From the IMG/VR virus record IMGVR_UViG_2675903324_000004: DNA of 19,205 nt, one strand, 5' to 3'. Under the pieces are notes generated by a model. That model worked only from the letters and a program-made list of their open reading frames with translations. It searched no databases and had not been told where the DNA came from. Position numbers and translations under genes: made by a program. Within the stretch, counting starts at the first letter, position 1; the number at the start of each line of letters is the position of its first letter. This document shows positions 2,161 through 5,959 of the stretch, in pieces. This DNA comes from a virus. Taxonomy: Duplodnaviria; Heunggongvirae; Uroviricota; Caudoviricetes.

Positions 2161-2733
2161 ATGAATATGATGACCGTGCCGTTTCACGGCGATTCTCTTT
2201 ATGTGGTTAACCATAACGGCGAACCATACGTTCCCATGAAACCTGTCGTTGAGGGAATGGGTATGACCTGGCAGTCTCAACACCGCAAATTGATGGAGAG
2301 ATTTAAGACCTGCATCATCGAAATGATGATTCAGCTCCCCGGTGATACTCAGCGTCGTCTGGTTATCTGTCTTGCTTTACGTAAACTTGCAGGTTGGCTG
2401 CAAACCATCAACCCAAATAAAGTTAAACCTGAAATCCGCGACAGAGTCATTCAGTATCAGGAAGAGTGCGACGATGTTCTCTATGAATACTGGACGAAGG
2501 GTTTTGTCGTTAATCCTCGTCAAATGAGCGTGATGGAAGAACTCAACCAGGCATGCGCTGACATGAAACGGGATAAAAACATTGCCAGTCTGTTTGGTAC
2601 AGGGTTAAACGAATGGAAATTGGTTAAAGCTGCGCATGTGTCAAAAATCCGCACATTGATAAACGAAGCGAATCTGCTGATTGATTTTGTCCTGGCTGAT
2701 ACAGGCAAAGGGAAAATAACAAAGGCGGATTGA
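2161..2733 (+). CDS. phage antirepressor-like protein (tentative; N-terminal region resembles P22-AR-N-type antirepressor domains)
   Basis: 190-aa ORF with SD AAGGA upstream of the ATG. The N-terminal motif TVPFHGDSLYVVNHNGEPYVPMKPVVEGMGMTWQSQ matches my memory of proteins annotated as phage antirepressors that sit between R and Rz in some E. coli lambdoid/Stx-type prophages. The family assignment is from memory only. Confidence 0.6.
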   Translation: MNMMTVPFHGDSLYVVNHNGEPYVPMKPVVEGMGMTWQSQHRKLMERFKTCIIEMMIQLPGDTQRRLVICLALRKLAGWLQTINPNKVKPEIRDRVIQYQEECDDVLYEYWTKGFVVNPRQMSVMEELNQACADMKRDKNIASLFGTGLNEWKLVKAAHVSKIRTLINEANLLIDFVLADTGKGKITKAD

Positions 2734-2882
2734 TGGAGTGGTGGCTAATGATATCGGATAAAATCATAACGCTGACAAAGACCATTTGTGTGATTGTCGG
2801 CGTTTCATTTTCGCTAATGATGGTTGCTCTTTTTCTTTCCATAGCCTGGATGGCGTTGAGTTCGGCAGGGCTGGTGGGGTGA
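2733..2882 (+). CDS. small hydrophobic membrane protein (49 aa); possible lysis-accessory protein
   Basis: Not in the ORF track (<60 aa). Its ATG at 2733 overlaps the upstream stop (TGATG) and its TGA at 2880-2882 overlaps the Rz GTG start (GTGA), so it is translationally coupled on both sides. It encodes MEWWLMISDKIITLTKTICVIVGVSFSLMMVALFLSIAWMALSSAGLVG, with one long or two short transmembrane segments. It lacks the charged C-terminal tail usual for holins. Confidence 0.4.
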   Translation: MEWWLMISDKIITLTKTICVIVGVSFSLMMVALFLSIAWMALSSAGLVG

Positions 2883-3322
2883 GCATAAACCGAATTCTTT
2901 CCGCGTTTACCGTTATTCTGCTGGTGGCCTGTGGTGCGCTTAGTTTGGGGCTGAATCATTACCGTGATAACGCCATCGCCTACAAAGAGCAGCGCGATAA
3001 AGCCACATCCATCATCGCTGATATGCAGAAGCGGCAACGTGATGTAGCAGAACTTGACGCCAGATACACAAAGGAGCTTGCTGATGCTAATGCGACTATC
3101 GAAAGTCTCCGTGCTGATGTTTCTGCTGGGCGTAAGCGCCTGCAAGTCGCCGCCACCTGTGCAAACTCAACGACCGGAGCCAGCAGCATGGGCGATGGAG
3201 AAAGCCCAGGACTTACAGCAGATGCTGAACTCAATTATTACCGTCTCCGAAGTGGAATCGACAGGATAACCGCGCAGGTTAACTACCTGCAGGAGTACAT
3301 CAGGACGCAATGCCTGAAATAA
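2879..3322 (+). CDS. Rz: i-spanin (inner-membrane spanin subunit) Rz
   Basis: From the GTG at 2879 the product begins MSINRILSAFTVILLVACGALSLGLNHYRDNAIAYKEQRDK..., i.e. an N-terminal TMD then a coiled-coil periplasmic domain, closely resembling lambda Rz (…AVNHYRDNAITYKAQRDK…). The upstream extension of the track ORF (TTG at 2786) is non-homologous, so the GTG start is preferred. Confidence 0.9.
   Translation: MSINRILSAFTVILLVACGALSLGLNHYRDNAIAYKEQRDKATSIIADMQKRQRDVAELDARYTKELADANATIESLRADVSAGRKRLQVAATCANSTTGASSMGDGESPGLTADAELNYYRLRSGIDRITAQVNYLQEYIRTQCLK
3084..3269 (+). CDS. Rz1: o-spanin (outer-membrane lipoprotein spanin subunit) Rz1, embedded in the +1 frame of Rz
   Basis: ATG at 3084 with a strong SD (AAGGAG at 3071-3076, 7-nt spacer). 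The signal peptide MLMRLSKVSVLMFLLGVSAC carries a lipobox (VSAC), followed by the Pro-rich mature region (KSPPPVQTQRPEPAAW) characteristic of Rz1. It is wholly embedded in Rz, as in lambda. Confidence 0.85.
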   Translation: MLMRLSKVSVLMFLLGVSACKSPPPVQTQRPEPAAWAMEKAQDLQQMLNSIITVSEVESTG

Positions 3323-3354
3323 TTTTTTTGCAAATCACAAAGTCAATTTAATGA

Positions 3355-3377
3355 GCCTCGCGATGCGGGGCTTTTTT
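3355..3377 (+). terminator. rho-independent terminator after Rz/Rz1
   Basis: 7-bp GC-rich stem GCCTCGC (3355-3361) / loop GAT / GCGGGGC (3365-3371), including one G-U pair, followed by TTTTTT (3372-3377). Confidence 0.7.
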
Positions 3378-3520
3378 ATGTCCGCAGTAAACGCGCATCT
3401 CACGCGCATATTAACGAGAGCCTTTCAGTAAGCGGGCCTGAGAATTGCCGTTATAGGTGGCGACCTCTCTCGGGCGGCTTTTCTGTGAGACAGGCTCACT
3501 TTCTAAAAGGTAAAGACGCC

Positions 3521-4018
3521 ATGAAAGCAATCACGCTTTTTAATACACCGATCCGTGTTGATGAATCAGGAATGATCTGCCTCACTGATATGTGGAAAGC
3601 CAGTGGTAAAAGTGAATCTGAATCTCCGTACCACTACCTGCGAAACAAGCAGACCAAAGAGTTCTTAGCCGAGCTGGAGAAAAACCACGAATCTGTGGTT
3701 TTTACTGAGCGCGGTGTACACGGTGGAACATATGGCGGGAAGTTTGTTGCTTATGATTATGCAGCATGGCTAACCCCCGGATTTAAATATGCAGCCTATA
3801 AAGTCCTGGATGACTACTTCACCGGAGAACTTCAGCATCGCAACAGCTTAAGTGCGCAGCTCAATATGAAGTGTCATGAGTTTGATCAGAAAAAAGATAT
3901 GGCGAGCTTCTGTGGGCAAGGTCTGGCGGCATGGCGCTATACGAAACCAGTGTTGGTCGCTGAGATTAACTCCCTGGCTAACCAGCTGCAGATAACGATC
4001 CCCGGGCTTCCGGGATGA
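3521..4018 (+). CDS. KilA-N domain-containing protein
   Basis: N-terminal region MKAITLFNTPIRVDESGMICLTDMWKASGK…GGKFVAYDYAAWLTPGFKYAAYKVLDDYF resembles KilA-N (APSES-like) DNA-binding domains common in prophage accessory regions. ATG 3521 is preferred over the GTG at 3485 by homology, but the start is uncertain. Confidence 0.7.
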   Translation: MKAITLFNTPIRVDESGMICLTDMWKASGKSESESPYHYLRNKQTKEFLAELEKNHESVVFTERGVHGGTYGGKFVAYDYAAWLTPGFKYAAYKVLDDYFTGELQHRNSLSAQLNMKCHEFDQKKDMASFCGQGLAAWRYTKPVLVAEINSLANQLQITIPGLPG

Positions 4019-4272
4019 GTGATCGTGTCATTGAATGCGCCTCCAGAGCGGGGCGCGACTTCTCAGAGTTCATGAAAGGCGAGAAGGGCATGATGGAAGC
4101 ATTGGCCTCGGTGGATGAGTTTGGCGAGCAGCTGCGCCTCAACGGCTGTGTCAATCATCACTTTGTTAGCTACATGATGCGGAACTCGATCATGCAGGCA
4201 TTCATGGACATGGCAAAAGCCGAGAGGAAAGAAGAGCGCCGGCGTAAGCGAGCGGAAGCAAAAGCGAAGTAG
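4015..4272 (+). CDS. small hypothetical protein (85 aa) with a basic, Arg/Lys-rich C-terminal tail
   Basis: The ATG at 4015 overlaps the stop of the KilA-N gene (ATGA), indicating translational coupling. The C-terminus is AKAERKEERRRKRAEAKAK. No family recognised. Confidence 0.5.
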   Translation: MSDRVIECASRAGRDFSEFMKGEKGMMEALASVDEFGEQLRLNGCVNHHFVSYMMRNSIMQAFMDMAKAERKEERRRKRAEAKAK

Positions 4273-4309
4273 CCATTACAAAGCCTACCTACGGGTGGGC
4301 TTGATAATG
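4273..4309. repeat. copy 1 of a repeated post-stop hairpin element (ATTACAAA - 5-bp stem AAGCC/GGCTT with 12-nt loop containing CCTAC - GATAATG)
   Basis: Lies immediately 3' of the TAG stop at 4270-4272 and resembles the element at 4873-4913 (roughly 75-80 percent identity by eye, same architecture). Confidence 0.6.
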
Positions 4310-4497
4310 AAACCGGAATTTATTCTGGGCAACCAGTTACGGCAGTACAGCGAAACAACCCAAGCCAGTAAGTGGGGAAATAACACTGGCAGCCACTGAA
4401 AGATGAACCTCCAGCCTTATGGCAAAAAAGATTCTTTGTGGTGGCAGACTGATGGAAAGACATCCTAATCAAGCAACCACTCCACAGGGTCATAATT

Positions 4498-4872
4498 ATG
4501 AACGACCAGCAAATCGAAAAAGAAATCGTTGAGAAAGGCAAAACGGCACCGCGTGTAACACCTGAGAAAATTGAAGGCCTCATTTGCAGTGAGCATTTTT
4601 TCACTGCTGCGCAGGGTGGCCACTAGGCTAAAGAAGATGACCTTATTTATAATCCGGAGCCTTATGTCGAAGCCACCCCTGATGCTCTGCACCTTCTTAC
4701 TTTCTGCGTATTGGTACTGAAGAATGGCTTCACCGTTACCGGAGAGAGTGCCTGTGCAAGTCCGGAAAATTTTGATGCAGAAATTGGTCGGAAGATTGCC
4801 CGGCAGAATGCTGTAAACAAAATCTGGATGCTCGAAGGTTACTTGCTGAAGCAGAAGCTAAGCGAACAGTAG
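4498..4872 (+). pseudogene. small phage accessory protein (possibly of the N4 Gp49 / Sf6 gp66-like family, tentative) interrupted by an in-frame TAG at 4624-4626
   Basis: The reading frame is continuous from ATG 4498 to TAG 4870-4872 (124 codons) except for a single in-frame TAG at codon 43. The downstream part (…LHLLTFCVLVLKNGFTVTGESACASPENFDAEIGRKIARQNAVNKIWMLEGYLLKQ) is clearly protein-like and has no in-frame ATG of its own other than one 14 codons from the end. The competing minus-strand ORFs (4320-4604, 4465-4692) look non-coding. Confidence 0.5.
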
Positions 4873-4913
4873 TTATTACAAAAGCCATTCCCTACAGAGT
4901 GGCTTTGATAATG
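4873..4913. repeat. copy 2 of the repeated post-stop hairpin element (7-bp stem AAAGCCA/TGGCTTT, 12-nt loop containing CCTAC, then GATAATG)
   Basis: Lies immediately 3' of the TAG stop at 4870-4872 and has the same architecture and flanking motifs as 4273-4309. Confidence 0.6.
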
Positions 4914-5229
4914 GCTTATACCCTACACGGGATAACTTAATTGATATCCTTTTTAACGGATAAAGGCATTTCAGCCTGACATAGCCATGCGCCGTATCGT
5001 CGCCGTATTCCTGCATTAACAGAGACCGCAGCCCGACAGGGAGACTCCTCTGCGAGAGTGTGCGGGGATAATCAAAAACGATACACACCGGGGTTTACCG
5101 CGTTAACGGAGCGCGGCGTTGTCCCCTCATGGTCGCTGGTCCGGTGCGATGGTGGAAGAAACTGGATTTTGTTGCAACTGATAACCATTATCATTTTGCG
5201 GGTCCTTTCCGGCGATCCGGGCCGTTACG

Positions 5230-5241
5230 GGGCGGCGACCT
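5230..5241. other. cosN: cosN cohesive-end site (12-nt overhang sequence GGGCGGCGACCT)
   Basis: The sequence 5208-5270, GCGGGTCCTTTCCGGCGATCCGGGCCGTTACG|GGGCGGCGACCT|CGCGGGTTTTCGCTATTTATGAAAATTTT, matches my memory of the lambda right-end/left-end junction almost base for base. It lies about 170 bp upstream of the terminase small subunit gene, as in lambda. Confidence 0.9.
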
Positions 5242-5400
5242 CGCGGGTTTTCGCTATTTATGAAAATTTTTAGGGAAAAATCAGATCCGTTCTTCTTCTT
5301 TTTAACTGATTGATTATCAATAGAATTTTAAAAATATAAAAGGATCTGACAAAGGCTGTTTTTGTCCGAAAACGCCATTTTCAGATCCTTTCTGGTTCCC
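5242..5400 (+). promoter_or_regulatory. cosB: cosB-like terminase-binding region with three R-site-like elements and an IHF-consensus-like AT-rich segment
   Basis: R3-like TCAGATCCGTTCTTCTTC (5281-5298); inverted R2-like AAAAGGATCTGACAAAGG (5338-5355); R1-like TTCAGATCCTTTCTGG (5380-5395). Spacing relative to cosN resembles lambda R3/R2/R1. AT-rich 5304-5337 contains a WATCAANNNNTTR-like match on the minus strand (AATCAATCAGTTA). Confidence 0.65.
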
Positions 5401-5410
5401 GGGGGAGTGT

Positions 5411-5959
5411 ATGAACGTCAATAAGAAAAAACTGGCCGATATTTTTGGCGTTGATGTCAGGACCATCACCGCCTGGCAGAGTCAGGGGTTACCACTAGTT
5501 TCTGGTGGAGGGAAAGGGACTGAATCAGTTTTTGATACAACTGCTGCCATTCAGTGGTATGCGCAGAGGGAAGCTGATATTGAAAACGAAAAACTCCGTA
5601 AAGAGATCGAGGATTTGAGGGCTGCCAGCGAATCAGACCTTCAGCCCGGCACCATTGATTACGAACGTTACCGACTGACGAAGGCACAGGCCGATGCACA
5701 GGAGCTGAAAAATGCTCGTGAGGAAGGCCTTGTCCTCGAGACGGAGTTATTTACCTACATCTTTCAGCGAGTGGCACAGAATATATCAGGGATCCTTGTC
5801 CGTGTCCCTCAGACACTGCAGCGTAAATACCCTGATATATCACCCGTACATCTTGATGCTGTGAAAACTGAAATCGCGAAAGCATCCGATGTGGCTTCTG
5901 AAGCCGGTGAGAATGTGCGCAGGTGGATTGATGATTTCAGACGAACTGAGGGCGGCTAA
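5411..5959 (+). CDS. Nu1: terminase small subunit (gpNu1 homolog)
   Basis: 182 aa with SD GGGGGAG upstream. Strong similarity from memory to lambda Nu1 (MEVNKKQLADIFGASIRTIQNWQEQGMPVLRGGGKGNEVLYDSAAVIKWYAE…), including the N-terminal winged-HTH region. Confidence 0.95.

What the first reader, a model, noticed from the sequence alone, without database searches (positions are those of the whole stretch)
4273..4913. Repeated hairpin element directly after the stop codons of two consecutive accessory genes
Elements at 4273-4309 and 4873-4913 share flanking ATTACAAA, a stem AAGCC(A)/(T)GGCTT, a 12-nt loop containing CCTAC, and a trailing GATAATG. Both begin within a few nt of a TAG stop. There is no T-tract, so they are not classical intrinsic terminators. 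Candidate roles are mRNA 3'-stabilising or processing hairpins, a protein-binding site, or conserved module-boundary sequences mediating mosaic exchange of accessory genes. GATAAT could also be a -10-like hexamer for the next gene.
Basis: seen in the sequence. Interest (0 to 1): 0.5.

Follow-up and report, generated by a model that had tools for sequence, protein, structure and literature searches.

The report
Conserved late-mRNA hairpin at phage cassette boundaries
The two repeats are copies of a widespread, unannotated RNA hairpin in the late operon of lambda-like phages; it sits just after gene ends, looks like a phage T7 RNase III cutting site, and marks the points where accessory genes are swapped between phages.

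Summary
Each element is bipartite. It has an A/U-rich lower stem (CAUUA/UAAUG, extendable), an invariant 2x2 internal loop (CA/GA), a 9-10 bp upper stem that starts AAG/CUU, and a small loop.

They are the only two copies in the window. Both lie on the late-gene strand, with ATTAC starting 2 nt after a TAG.

The same motif occurs once or twice in P22, HK97, HK022, HK620, Sf6, ST64T, ES18, Stx phages and Klebsiella, Enterobacter and Aeromonas phages. It also occurs in prophages of many Enterobacterales genera. It is absent from lambda and from K-12 DLP12 and Qin.

The upper stem changes sequence completely yet keeps pairing. The core pairs hold 120 G.U against 2 A.C, so the fold is selected on the mRNA-sense strand. 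Flanks diverge exactly at the element edges and hybrid joints exist, so it is also a mosaic boundary.

Architecture and base-pair content match E. coli RNase III determinants and T7 sites R1.1 and R1. Two reciprocal covariance models rank each other's sites first, but at weak scores.

Best reading: an intercistronic RNase III-type processing and 3'-stabilising hairpin (confidence about 0.5). A cis-acting RNA structure of some kind is much more certain (about 0.85). It is not a terminator or a promoter. No cleavage data exist.

The parts
4015..4272 (+). 85-aa accessory gene (HK620 hkbL homologue, phrog_875, function unknown). Its TAG stop (4270-4272) lies 2 nt before the ATTAC of E1.
   Evidence: ORF list; no Pfam hit; phrog_875, E = 3e-54; annotated hkbL in HK620.
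4274..4309 (+). E1, a type-1 hairpin. Lower stem 4274-4278/4305-4309; internal loop CA (4279-4280) / GA (4303-4304); upper stem 4281-4289/4294-4302, starting AAG/CUU; UACG loop 4290-4293.
   Evidence: Fold -20.9 kcal/mol, z = -4.9; covariance model 66.8 bits, E = 5e-14; coordinates read.
4333..4464 (+). 'U', an ultra-conserved non-coding unit between the two hairpins. It ends at a sharp junction (GACATC) after which different phages carry either a type-3 hairpin or one of several gene cassettes.
   Evidence: 78 unique variants in 108 copies, almost invariant, with no codon periodicity and no conserved ORF; four alternative continuations.
4498..4872 (+). Gp49 / Sf6-gp66-family accessory gene, the cassette lying between U and E2. 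Here it is a pseudogene with an in-frame TAG at 4624-4626. Its terminal TAG (4870-4872) lies 2 nt before the ATTAC of E2.
   Evidence: PF13876, E = 3.5e-31 on the C-terminal part. In the one fetched locus matching this variant's flanking 20-mers the codon is CAG; Sf6 gp66 and phiKp_30 Gp49 read through without a stop. PGAP marks the gene as split or partial.
4871..4916 (+). E2, a type-2 hairpin. Lower stem 4871-4878/4909-4916, which includes the AG of the stop codon; internal loop CA (4879-4880) / GA (4907-4908); upper stem 4881-4890/4897-4906; loop CCUACA 4891-4896. The CAUUC/GAGUG top of the stem is identical to T7 R1.1.
   Evidence: Fold -20.6 kcal/mol, z = -4.8; covariance model 61.7 bits; T7-site model hits this locus first in the window.
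4917..4954 (+). Conserved 3' flank (GGCTTATACCCTACAC...) that starts inside the E2 lower stem at 4913. This entry covers the part beyond the stem. It holds a small hairpin GGATA (4930-4934) / TATCC (4945-4949) followed by T5. The flank travels with type-2 and type-3 hairpins in many phages.
   Evidence: Sequence; the same flank in HK620, HK022, Sf6 and Stx2-1717; the GGCTTATAC flank is dominant.

Best explanation
E1 and E2 are two copies of a conserved cis-acting RNA hairpin that folds in the Q-antiterminated late transcript.

It most likely works as an intercistronic RNase III processing signal of the phage T7 R1.1 type. The host enzyme would bind the roughly 16-20 bp quasi-continuous helix. 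It would read the AAG/CUU base of the upper stem as its proximal box and the U-A / U.G pairs near the loop as its distal box. It would then cut at the small CA/GA internal loop.

A cut on the 3' side would leave the upstream accessory-gene message ending in a stable hairpin right after its stop codon, protected from 3'-5' exonucleases. It would also separate that message's fate from the downstream message.

The roughly 50-nt motif is the only sequence shared between otherwise unrelated accessory-gene cassettes. It is therefore also where recombination joints between phages fall. I read that as a consequence of its conservation, not as its selected function.

**Shown:** the structure, its covariation, the strand on which it folds, its distribution, and its boundary role.

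**Inferred:** RNase III as the reader of the motif, the cleavage position, and the stabilising sign of the effect.
For: **1. The structure is selected.**
- On 55 distinct sequences, 91.4% of cells pair, against 29-50% when partners are slid by 1-3 columns. Nine of 18 pairs show changes on both sides (the seed alignment gives the same picture).
- An unbiased test scanned one genome per species for CATTACAAAG-N16-24-CTTGATAATG, leaving the inner segment free. Of 39 hits with a 16-nt inner segment, 34 form at least 5 consecutive pairs (random expectation 0.75%). They use 15 different stem sequences. Chance hits in unrelated taxa form 0-2 pairs.

**2. The fold is on the mRNA-sense strand.**
- The core pairs hold 690 Watson-Crick, 120 G.U and only 2 A.C.
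- The + strand is more stable in 50 of 55 variants, with mean free energy -20.4 against -15.6 kcal/mol.
- Wherever gene orientation was checked, the copy lies on the late-gene strand: the annotated phage loci and the ORF-adjacent contexts.

**3. Placement suits an mRNA element.**
- In 93 of 130 ORF-adjacent contexts the stop codon ends exactly 2 nt before ATTAC. This holds for unrelated genes: the 85-aa gene, Rha and Gp49 among others.
- In Xenorhabdus, Serratia, Morganella, Pantoea and Siccibacter prophages the motif lies between the major tail protein gene (phrog_853, E = 6e-87) and the next gene, which starts 5-31 nt after it. Elsewhere it follows Rz or Rz1, or precedes the small terminase gene.

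**4. It matches published RNase III determinants (Pertzev and Nicholson 2006, PMC1540722).**
- Their rule: an 11-bp helix from cut site to loop; a proximal box of G-C, A-U, A-U followed by a position that should not be G-C; a distal box of U-A and U.G; internal loops restrict cleavage to one strand and leave a protective 3' hairpin.
- Here the nearly invariant AAG/CUU is followed by non-Watson-Crick A.G and C.A positions, and the upper stem is 9-10 bp.
- Types 2 and 3 carry CAUUC/GAGUG exactly as in R1.1.
- The E2 upper stem is 17 of 20 nt identical to that of T7 R1.1.

**5. Reciprocal model tests.**
- The lambdoid model run over all of T7 (both strands) puts R1.1 (17.1 bits) and R1 (16.5 bits) first. 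R0.5, R18.5 and R4.7 are also among its 13 hits.
- A model built from 7 T7 sites puts E2 and E1 first in the window. Nearly all its hits in 17 other loci fall on the elements.

**6. Precedent.** RNase III processing of the lambda late transcript is on record (Daniels et al. 1988, cited in PMC7547250).
Against: - There are no RNA-end or cleavage data for any copy.
- The cross-family model scores are weak (E = 0.04-1.5), so they show resemblance, not homology. Any model of a stable hairpin would favour the few strong intergenic hairpins in T7.
- The T7-site model scores the E2 locus higher on the minus strand (18.6 bits) than on the plus strand (14.7 bits).
- E2 has A-U where the proximal box prefers G-C. 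Type 3 has G-C where A-U is preferred. E1 lacks the U-A of the distal box, and its lower stem is only 5 bp.
- The CAUUACA / GAUAAUG frame is conserved more tightly than RNase III is known to require. That leaves room for another reader.
- If RNase III cut both strands, the effect would be destabilising, as with lambda sib, rather than protective.
- Lambda itself lacks the motif, so it is not essential for lambdoid late expression.
Confidence: 0.5

Rival explanations
1. The hairpin is an RNA element, but RNase III is not its reader. It could be a passive 3'-exonuclease barrier that becomes a 3' end after RNase E cuts downstream. Or it could bind another host or phage RNA-binding protein through the invariant CAUUA-CA-AAG / CUU-GA-UAAUG core.
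For: All the evidence for a sense-strand RNA structure applies here too. The core around the internal loop is far more conserved than the rest, which suggests sequence-specific recognition. The cross-family scores with T7 sites are weak.
Against: No candidate partner gene travels with the motif. Its neighbours range from KilA-N, Rha and Gp49 genes to tail and terminase genes. The invariant AAG/CUU, the helix length and the internal-loop position are all explained by published RNase III rules.
Confidence: 0.27
2. The element has no RNA function. It is a DNA-level linker, a 'boundary sequence'. It persists because homologous recombination between phages (Red, Erf or Rad52-like enzymes using short homologies) keeps re-using it as the joint between accessory-gene cassettes.
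For: - Flanks of most context pairs diverge within 0-4 nt of the element, on the 5' side in 18,569 of 22,578 pairs and on the 3' side in 12,102.
- More than 20 different upstream gene tails and at least 8 downstream flanks adjoin the element.
- Hybrid joints exist. The 85-aa stop plus a type-1 hairpin plus the E2-type flank occurs in 38 loci. L036 has a type-2 hairpin directly after the 85-aa gene. L056 and L043 have chimaeric arms.
- PhiR49_1 lacks everything between E1 and E2.
- Sf6 carries annotated boundary sequences elsewhere in its genome.
Against: A recombination linker needs sequence identity, not pairing. Here the upper stem is replaced by unrelated sequences that always pair. G.U outnumbers A.C by 120 to 2. 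The motif also sits at fixed, non-mosaic positions such as major tail gene / next gene.
Confidence: 0.12
3. The element folds as single-stranded DNA and is the target of a site-specific or structure-specific recombinase. This would resemble integron attC sites, which lie at the 3' end of gene cassettes.
For: There is a formal analogy: a gene plus a 3' imperfect palindrome with conserved outer boxes, unpaired positions and a variable, compensated centre. The joints lie at the element edges. Strand asymmetry alone cannot separate RNA from one DNA strand.
Against: The element has no attC core consensus (GTTRRRY / RYYYAAC) by direct reading. No recombinase gene lies among the neighbouring genes that were examined. 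The motif keeps a fixed register with stop and start codons and also occurs between essential tail genes.
Confidence: 0.03
4. The element is a transcription signal. It would be either an intrinsic terminator closing a 'moron', or a promoter that uses GATAAT as its -10 hexamer for the next gene.
For: It is a G+C-containing hairpin placed right after genes. GATAAT is one mismatch from TATAAT.
Against: - No U-tract follows it on either strand.
- The terminator scan finds other sites but not these, and it finds no + strand promoter at 3300-5500.
- The spacing between the TTACAA-like stretch and GATAAT varies (20, 21 and 24 nt) and is too long for a promoter.
- GAUAAU is base-paired inside the conserved structure, and it changes to GACAAU together with its partner (AU to GC at pair 12-44).
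- The real terminator-like hairpins in HK97 carry U-tracts and look different.
Confidence: 0.03

Closest known systems
Phage T7 RNase III processing signals (R0.3, R0.5, R1, R1.1, R1.3, R4.7, R18.5)
   Same: - They are intercistronic hairpins in a long phage polycistronic mRNA.
- They have an A/U-rich lower stem, an internal loop, and a 9-11 bp upper stem that starts AAGG/CCUU with a small loop.
- Several copies per genome share the sequence around the loop.
- The E2 upper stem is 17 of 20 nt identical to R1.1. The type-1 top, CAUCUGCGGGUGG, equals T7 R1.
- The two covariance models rank each other's sites first.
   Different: - The internal loop here is a symmetric 2x2 (CA/GA). In T7 it is larger and asymmetric (ACUC / UAUGAU).
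- The lower stem here is CAUUA/UAAUG and often shorter.
- The hosts are temperate lambdoid and other siphovirus or podovirus prophages, not T7-like lytic phages.
- Cleavage is untested, and the cross-scores are statistically weak.
Lambda RNase III sites: the late-transcript processing sites (Daniels et al. 1988) and the sib retroregulator
   Same: RNase III acts on lambdoid transcripts, including the Q-dependent late RNA (reference seen). sib shows that a hairpin 3' of a gene can set that gene's mRNA stability. HK97 has an annotated sib site.
   Different: Lambda 44000-48502 contains no copy of this motif. sib is a single site behind int on the other arm of the genome, and it destabilises. The positions of the Daniels sites could not be read here.
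Boundary sequences (bsq) of lambdoid phages (Clark et al. 2001 for HK620; annotated in the Sf6 record)
   Same: They are short conserved stretches at the joints between mosaic modules. The present motif behaves the same way with respect to its flanks.
   Different: The annotated Sf6 bsq7 lies inside Rz, not at this element. Neither Sf6 copy carries any feature. From my own knowledge, boundary sequences are defined by sequence only. This motif is defined by a covarying structure and a strand.
Integron attC sites
   Same: A cassette consists of a gene plus a 3' imperfect palindrome. The palindrome has conserved outer parts, unpaired bases and a variable, compensated centre, and it folds on one strand.
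   Different: This motif has no attC core consensus, no integrase, and a fixed register with stop codons. It also occurs between non-cassette structural genes.
Terminator-like intergenic hairpins and 'moron' terminators of HK97 (Juhala et al. 2000)
   Same: They occupy the same kind of position, after the major head, major tail and moron genes.
   Different: Most of them (six of the seven examined) are G+C hairpins followed by U-tracts; the one after the major tail gene has none. None shows the lower stem, internal loop or AAG/CUU frame of this motif. The covariance model does not find them, apart from one weak upper-stem hit of 15.4 bits.

Membership tests
E. coli RNase III processing signal (T7 R1.1 type) | A quasi-continuous helix of about two turns, with at least 11 stacked positions between the cut site and the loop | tested here: met
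   The upper stem is 9 bp (E1) or 10 bp (E2), plus two stacked non-Watson-Crick positions (A.G, C.A). The lower stem is 5 bp (E1), 8 bp (E2), and up to 10 bp in other genera. Rule taken from PMC1540722.
E. coli RNase III processing signal (T7 R1.1 type) | An internal loop or bulge at the target site that can restrict cleavage to one strand | tested here: met
   An invariant 2x2 loop, CA/GA, in every type in the E. coli-type samples (AA/GA in Aeromonas phage AsXd-1).; rule.
E. coli RNase III processing signal (T7 R1.1 type) | Proximal box: G-C, then A-U or U-A, then A-U, then a pair next to the scissile bond that is not G-C | tested here: inconclusive
   E1 and all type-1 variants fit exactly (AAG/CUU, then A.G). 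E2 has A-U at position 1. Type 3 has G-C at position 3. Column counts: pair 15-41 is AU in 43 and GC in 11; pair 16-40 is AU in 55; pair 17-39 is GC in 46 and AU in 9.
E. coli RNase III processing signal (T7 R1.1 type) | Distal box: U-A and U.G next to the loop-closing pair | tested here: inconclusive
   E2 and type 3 have CAUUC/GAGUG, the same as R1.1. E1 has only the U.G, as does T7 R1.
E. coli RNase III processing signal (T7 R1.1 type) | Profile similarity to proven sites | tested here: inconclusive
   The hits are reciprocal and top-ranked, but at 12-19 bits and E = 0.04-1.5.
E. coli RNase III processing signal (T7 R1.1 type) | Cleavage by RNase III in vivo or in vitro | not testable with these tools
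   No RNA-end data were found. K-12 prophages, for which rnc datasets exist, lack the motif.
Intrinsic (Rho-independent) terminator | A G+C-rich hairpin immediately followed by a U-tract | tested here: not met
   After the upper stem come GAUAAUG or GACAAUG. The terminator scan of 3300-5500 lists other sites only.
Sigma-70 promoter (GATAAT as the -10 hexamer) | A -35-like hexamer 16-18 nt upstream of the -10 hexamer | tested here: not met
   There is no + strand promoter-like site at 3300-5500. The distance from ATTACA to GATAAT is 20, 21 or 24 nt and varies by type.
Lambdoid boundary sequence (mosaic joint) | A short conserved sequence flanked by unrelated modules in different phages | tested here: met
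   However, neither copy is annotated as a boundary sequence in Sf6.
Integron attC site | Core sites RYYYAAC and GTTRRRY at the ends of the palindrome | tested here: not met
   The ends read CATTACA and GATAATG.
Integron attC site | An associated integron integrase | not tested
   Only neighbouring ORFs and record annotations were inspected. None is a recombinase.
Any Rfam 15 family | A covariance-model match | tested here: not met
   The whole window, both strands, at E up to 1, gave only a chance Noro_CRE hit elsewhere.

The most novel reading that the evidence does not exclude
E1 and the next hairpin downstream (type 2 or type 3) are paired processing sites. Together they would excise the ultra-conserved, ORF-less 'U' segment (window 4333-4464; about 195 nt from hairpin to hairpin in HK97, HK022 and ST64T, about 253 nt in HK620) from the late transcript. 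The product would be a discrete, hairpin-capped phage small RNA. Accessory-gene cassettes are inserted precisely at its 3' end, after GACATC, and so would ride on this processing unit.
Probability: 0.12. Interest if true: 0.7.

Novelty: new member of a known kind. Interest (0 to 1): 0.45.

Why it matters
If the hairpin is an RNase III-type processing and stabilising signal, T7-style segmental control of mRNA stability also operates in the late operons of temperate phages across Enterobacterales, including Shiga-toxin phages. It would then set the dose of accessory genes such as KilA-N, Rha, Gp49 and anti-CRISPR-annotated genes, and in other genera the ratio of major tail protein to the next gene.

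It also gives a concrete case where a functional RNA motif doubles as the short homology at which gene cassettes are exchanged. That helps explain why mosaic joints fall exactly at gene ends.

Practically, the motif has strong covariation, is absent from Rfam, and is not annotated in any of the phage or genome records inspected here. The locus (85-aa gene plus E1 plus U) matches in 1408 of 5426 complete E. coli genomes. It could be added to annotation pipelines.

Tried and rejected
- **Rfam.** A scan of the whole window at a permissive threshold found nothing at the elements.
- **Promoter and terminator scans.** Nothing at the elements.
- **Small ORFs from the AUG of GATAATG.** Not conserved: 30, 3 and 9 codons in the window, HK620 and HK022. 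P22 'orf25' starts inside the loop.
- **More copies in the window or elsewhere in phage genomes.** None in the window. None in HK97 1-36200. None in lambda 44000-48502. None in K-12 DLP12 or Qin.
- **Known prophage small RNAs.**
  - The Pas sRNA preprint concerns the Q-holin region.
  - The EHEC Hfq-CLIP candidates in Sakai prophage Sp3 lie at 901.3-901.7 kb, not at the Sp3 copy at 903,180-903,234.
  - AgvB, AsxR, STnc100 and Esr41 are Rfam families, and none matched the window.
- **Literature.**
  - Full-text search for the element's own sequence strings found only unrelated papers.
  - Searches on lambdoid late-operon hairpins or RNase III found no description of this motif.
  - The epsilon34 genome paper does not mention it.
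- **IHF site in CATTATCAAG.** Rejected by eye: the TTR part of the consensus is absent.
- **Coding potential or covariation of the U unit.** It varies too little to test.
- **V01146.** Tried for annotated T7 RNase III features; none are listed. The T7 site positions are therefore from my memory of Dunn and Studier 1983. They were checked by folding and against the description of R1.1 in PMC1540722.
Full report
**Context.** The window is the late region of a lambda-like E. coli prophage, with every gene on the + strand. It carries:
- an endolysin (1353-1886);
- a P22_AR_N/ORF11CD3 antirepressor-like gene (2161-2733);
- Rz (2786-3322);
- a KilA-N/ORF11CD3 gene (3485-4018);
- an 85-aa ORF (4015-4272);
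- a Gp49/Sf6-gp66-family gene (4498-4872);
- a lambda-type cos region;
- Nu1 (5411-5959), A, and the head and tail genes.

Several complete E. coli genomes carry identical DNA. The 4015-4500 segment matches in 1408 of 5426 genomes.

**Observation.** Both elements are at the stated coordinates. In each, ATTAC starts 2 nt after a TAG, and neither is followed by a T-tract. The conserved flanks ATTAC and GATAAT are complementary and form a lower stem. A 2x2 internal loop (CA/GA) separates that stem from a 9-bp upper stem (E1, UACG tetraloop) or a 10-bp upper stem (E2, 6-nt loop). Free energies are -20.9 and -20.6 kcal/mol, z about -4.9, and 0 of 200 shuffles fold as well. The reverse strand folds less well. 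A covariance model (R1) finds only these two sites in the window, at 66.8 and 61.7 bits. The reverse complements score 11-12 bits.

**Distribution.**
- BLAST of each element finds about 150-190 phage records: P22, HK97, HK022, HK620, Sf6, ST64T, ES18, epsilon34, CUS-3, Stx phages and a Klebsiella phage. Matches often begin exactly at ATTACAAA. In every locus I retrieved from these hits the element lies between the lysis and packaging genes.
- R1 finds one or two copies on the late-gene strand in all twelve other lambdoid or related phages tested. These include Enterobacter phage CobraSix (57.6 bits) and Aeromonas phage AsXd-1 (41.7 bits). It finds none in lambda.
- It also finds none in the rest of HK97 and none in K-12 DLP12 or Qin.
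- In 100 IMG/VR loci there are 135 copies, normally one or two per locus.
- A third type occurs in P22, HK620, HK022 and HK97: GGUUAUUGCA-GAGGCCAUUC-AAU-GAGUGGUCUC-GACAAUGG.

**Is the structure selected?** Yes.
- On 55 distinct sequences, 91.4% of cells pair, against 29-50% for slid controls. Nine of 18 pairs change on both sides. Examples are pair 12-44 (AU/GC), pair 15-41 (AU/GC), pair 18-38 (CG/GC/AU/GU) and pair 23-33 (CG/UA) (seed alignment).
- That alignment was fitted to the model, so I ran an unbiased test. I scanned one genome per species for CATTACAAAG-N16-24-CTTGATAATG, which fixes only the frame.
- Of 39 hits with a 16-nt free segment, 34 form at least 5 consecutive pairs, against a random expectation of 0.75%. 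They use 15 unrelated stem sequences, such as GGGCGGU/ACUGCCC, GGGUGCU/AGUGCCC and GCGUCUC/GGGGCGC.
- Hits with longer gaps in unrelated taxa form 0-2 pairs.
- The true hits come from Enterobacter, Leclercia, Kluyvera, Pantoea, Serratia, Xenorhabdus, Morganella, Budvicia, Siccibacter and other genera. In these the distal lower stem also varies while keeping its pairing.

**Which strand?** The core pairs hold 690 Watson-Crick, 120 G.U and 2 A.C. The + strand is more stable in 50 of 55 variants. The fold is therefore selected on the sense strand of the late operon. This points to RNA, although a single DNA strand cannot be formally excluded.

**Placement.**
- In 93 of 130 ORF-adjacent contexts the stop codon ends exactly 2 nt before ATTAC. 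The genes are unrelated: the 85-aa protein, Rha, Gp49 and others. Further families end 3-15 nt upstream.
- In Xenorhabdus, Serratia, Morganella, Pantoea and Siccibacter prophages the motif lies between the major tail protein gene and a DUF6246 gene. The major tail protein matches phrog_853 at E = 6e-87, and its stop lies in the lower stem. The DUF6246 gene starts 5-31 nt after the motif.
- In other genomes it follows Rz or Rz1-like genes, or precedes the small terminase gene.
- It is therefore a general intercistronic feature of late operons, not only an accessory-gene tag.

**Boundary role.**
- Pairs of contexts mostly lose similarity within 0-4 nt of the element edges. More than 20 upstream gene tails and at least 8 downstream flanks adjoin it.
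- Hybrid joints exist. The 85-aa stop plus a type-1 hairpin plus the E2-type flank GGCTTATAC occurs in 38 loci and in PhiR49_1 and Stx2-1717, which lack everything between E1 and E2. One locus has a type-2 hairpin directly after the 85-aa gene. Two loci have chimaeric arms.
- Because the stem sequence is free to change as long as it pairs, I take the boundary role to be a by-product of a conserved functional motif.

**Mechanism.** The motif is not a terminator: it has no U-tract, and HK97's terminator-like hairpins look different. It is not a promoter (variable spacing; GAUAAU is paired and covaries). The AUG does not open a conserved ORF.

The architecture is that of T7 RNase III sites:
- an A/U-rich lower stem;
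- an internal loop;
- an upper stem of 9-11 bp starting AAGG/CCUU;
- a small loop.

The published rules for E. coli RNase III explain why AAG/CUU is nearly invariant while the rest covaries (PMC1540722). Those rules are:
- an 11-bp helix from cut site to loop;
- a proximal box of G-C, A-U, A-U followed by a pair that is not G-C;
- a distal box of U-A and U.G;
- internal loops that confine cleavage to one strand and leave a protective 3' hairpin.

They also explain why two non-Watson-Crick positions follow AAG/CUU, and why types 2 and 3 carry CAUUC/GAGUG. The E2 upper stem is 17 of 20 nt identical to that of T7 R1.1.

Model R1 run over the entire T7 genome ranks R1.1 and R1 first. R0.5, R18.5 and R4.7 are also among its 13 hits. 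A model built from seven T7 sites (R2) ranks E2 and E1 first in the window and picks out the elements in 17 other loci.

These scores are weak (E = 0.04-1.5). E2 and type 3 each deviate at one proximal-box position. RNase III is therefore the best-supported reader, not a demonstrated one. RNase III processing of lambda late RNA has precedent (Daniels 1988, reference seen).

**Novelty.** I found no Rfam family, no feature in any of the phage or genome records inspected, and no description in the searchable literature. The kind of element is known: an intercistronic processing or stabiliser hairpin in phage mRNA. This family, its breadth, and its coincidence with mosaic joints appear to be unreported.

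**Limits.**
- No RNA data exist for any copy.
- The T7 site positions come from memory of Dunn and Studier 1983, checked by folding.
- The sampling is dominated by E. coli and Salmonella prophages.
- The genome scan fixed the frame sequence, so it says nothing about how variable that frame is outside Enterobacterales.

Noticed in passing
window 4333-4464: An ultra-conserved non-coding unit ('U') lies between the hairpins. Across 108 copies (78 unique) it is almost invariant, with no conserved ORF and no codon periodicity. It ends at a sharp junction (GACATC). After that junction phages carry a type-3 hairpin (73 copies), the Gp49 cassette (24), or one of two other gene cassettes (8 and 3). It may be an RNA in its own right.
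   Followed up: partly
window 4624-4626 (in gene 4498-4872): The Gp49/Sf6-gp66-family gene carries an in-frame TAG. The one fetched locus matching this variant's flanking 20-mers has CAG there, Sf6 gp66 and phiKp_30 Gp49 read through without a stop, and PGAP annotates the gene as split or partial. It is a pseudogene in this prophage.
   Followed up: yes
window 4930-4954: A small hairpin, GGATA / TATCC with a 10-nt loop followed by T5, sits in the conserved GGCTTATACCC... flank that accompanies type-2 and type-3 hairpins in many phages. It may be a weak terminator for unmodified polymerase.
   Followed up: no
window 2161-2733: A P22_AR_N + ORF11CD3 antirepressor-like gene is inserted inside the lysis cassette, between the endolysin (1353-1886) and Rz (2786-3322). 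A second ORF11CD3 protein (KilA-N, 3485-4018) follows Rz.
   Followed up: no
window 5339-5391: A 23-nt inverted repeat, 83% complementary with 7 nt between the arms, lies just upstream of the Nu1 start, within the cos / terminase-binding region.
   Followed up: no
L216 3681-3735 (E. coli O157 Sakai NC_002695 903180-903234): Prophage Sp3 has a type-2 copy inside a 675-nt gap with no annotated gene, between ECs_0822 and the small terminase gene. The published Hfq-bound sRNA candidates of Sp3 lie elsewhere, at 901.3-901.7 kb.
   Followed up: partly
L290 7443-7462 (HK97): The hairpin annotated as a 'putative terminator' after the HK97 major tail gene has no U-tract (GAUGCCGGG-UUGU-CCCGGCAU, then GGAUAAG). 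It occupies the same position as the motif in Xenorhabdus and Serratia prophages but is not a member of this family.
   Followed up: partly
L002 3597-3645, minus strand (PhiR49_1, inside ybcV): The sequence ACAAAAGGTAT-TACT-ATACCTTTGATAAT mimics the upper stem and 3' frame of the motif, but it lies inside a coding region on the other strand. I treated it as a chance or degenerate match.
   Followed up: no
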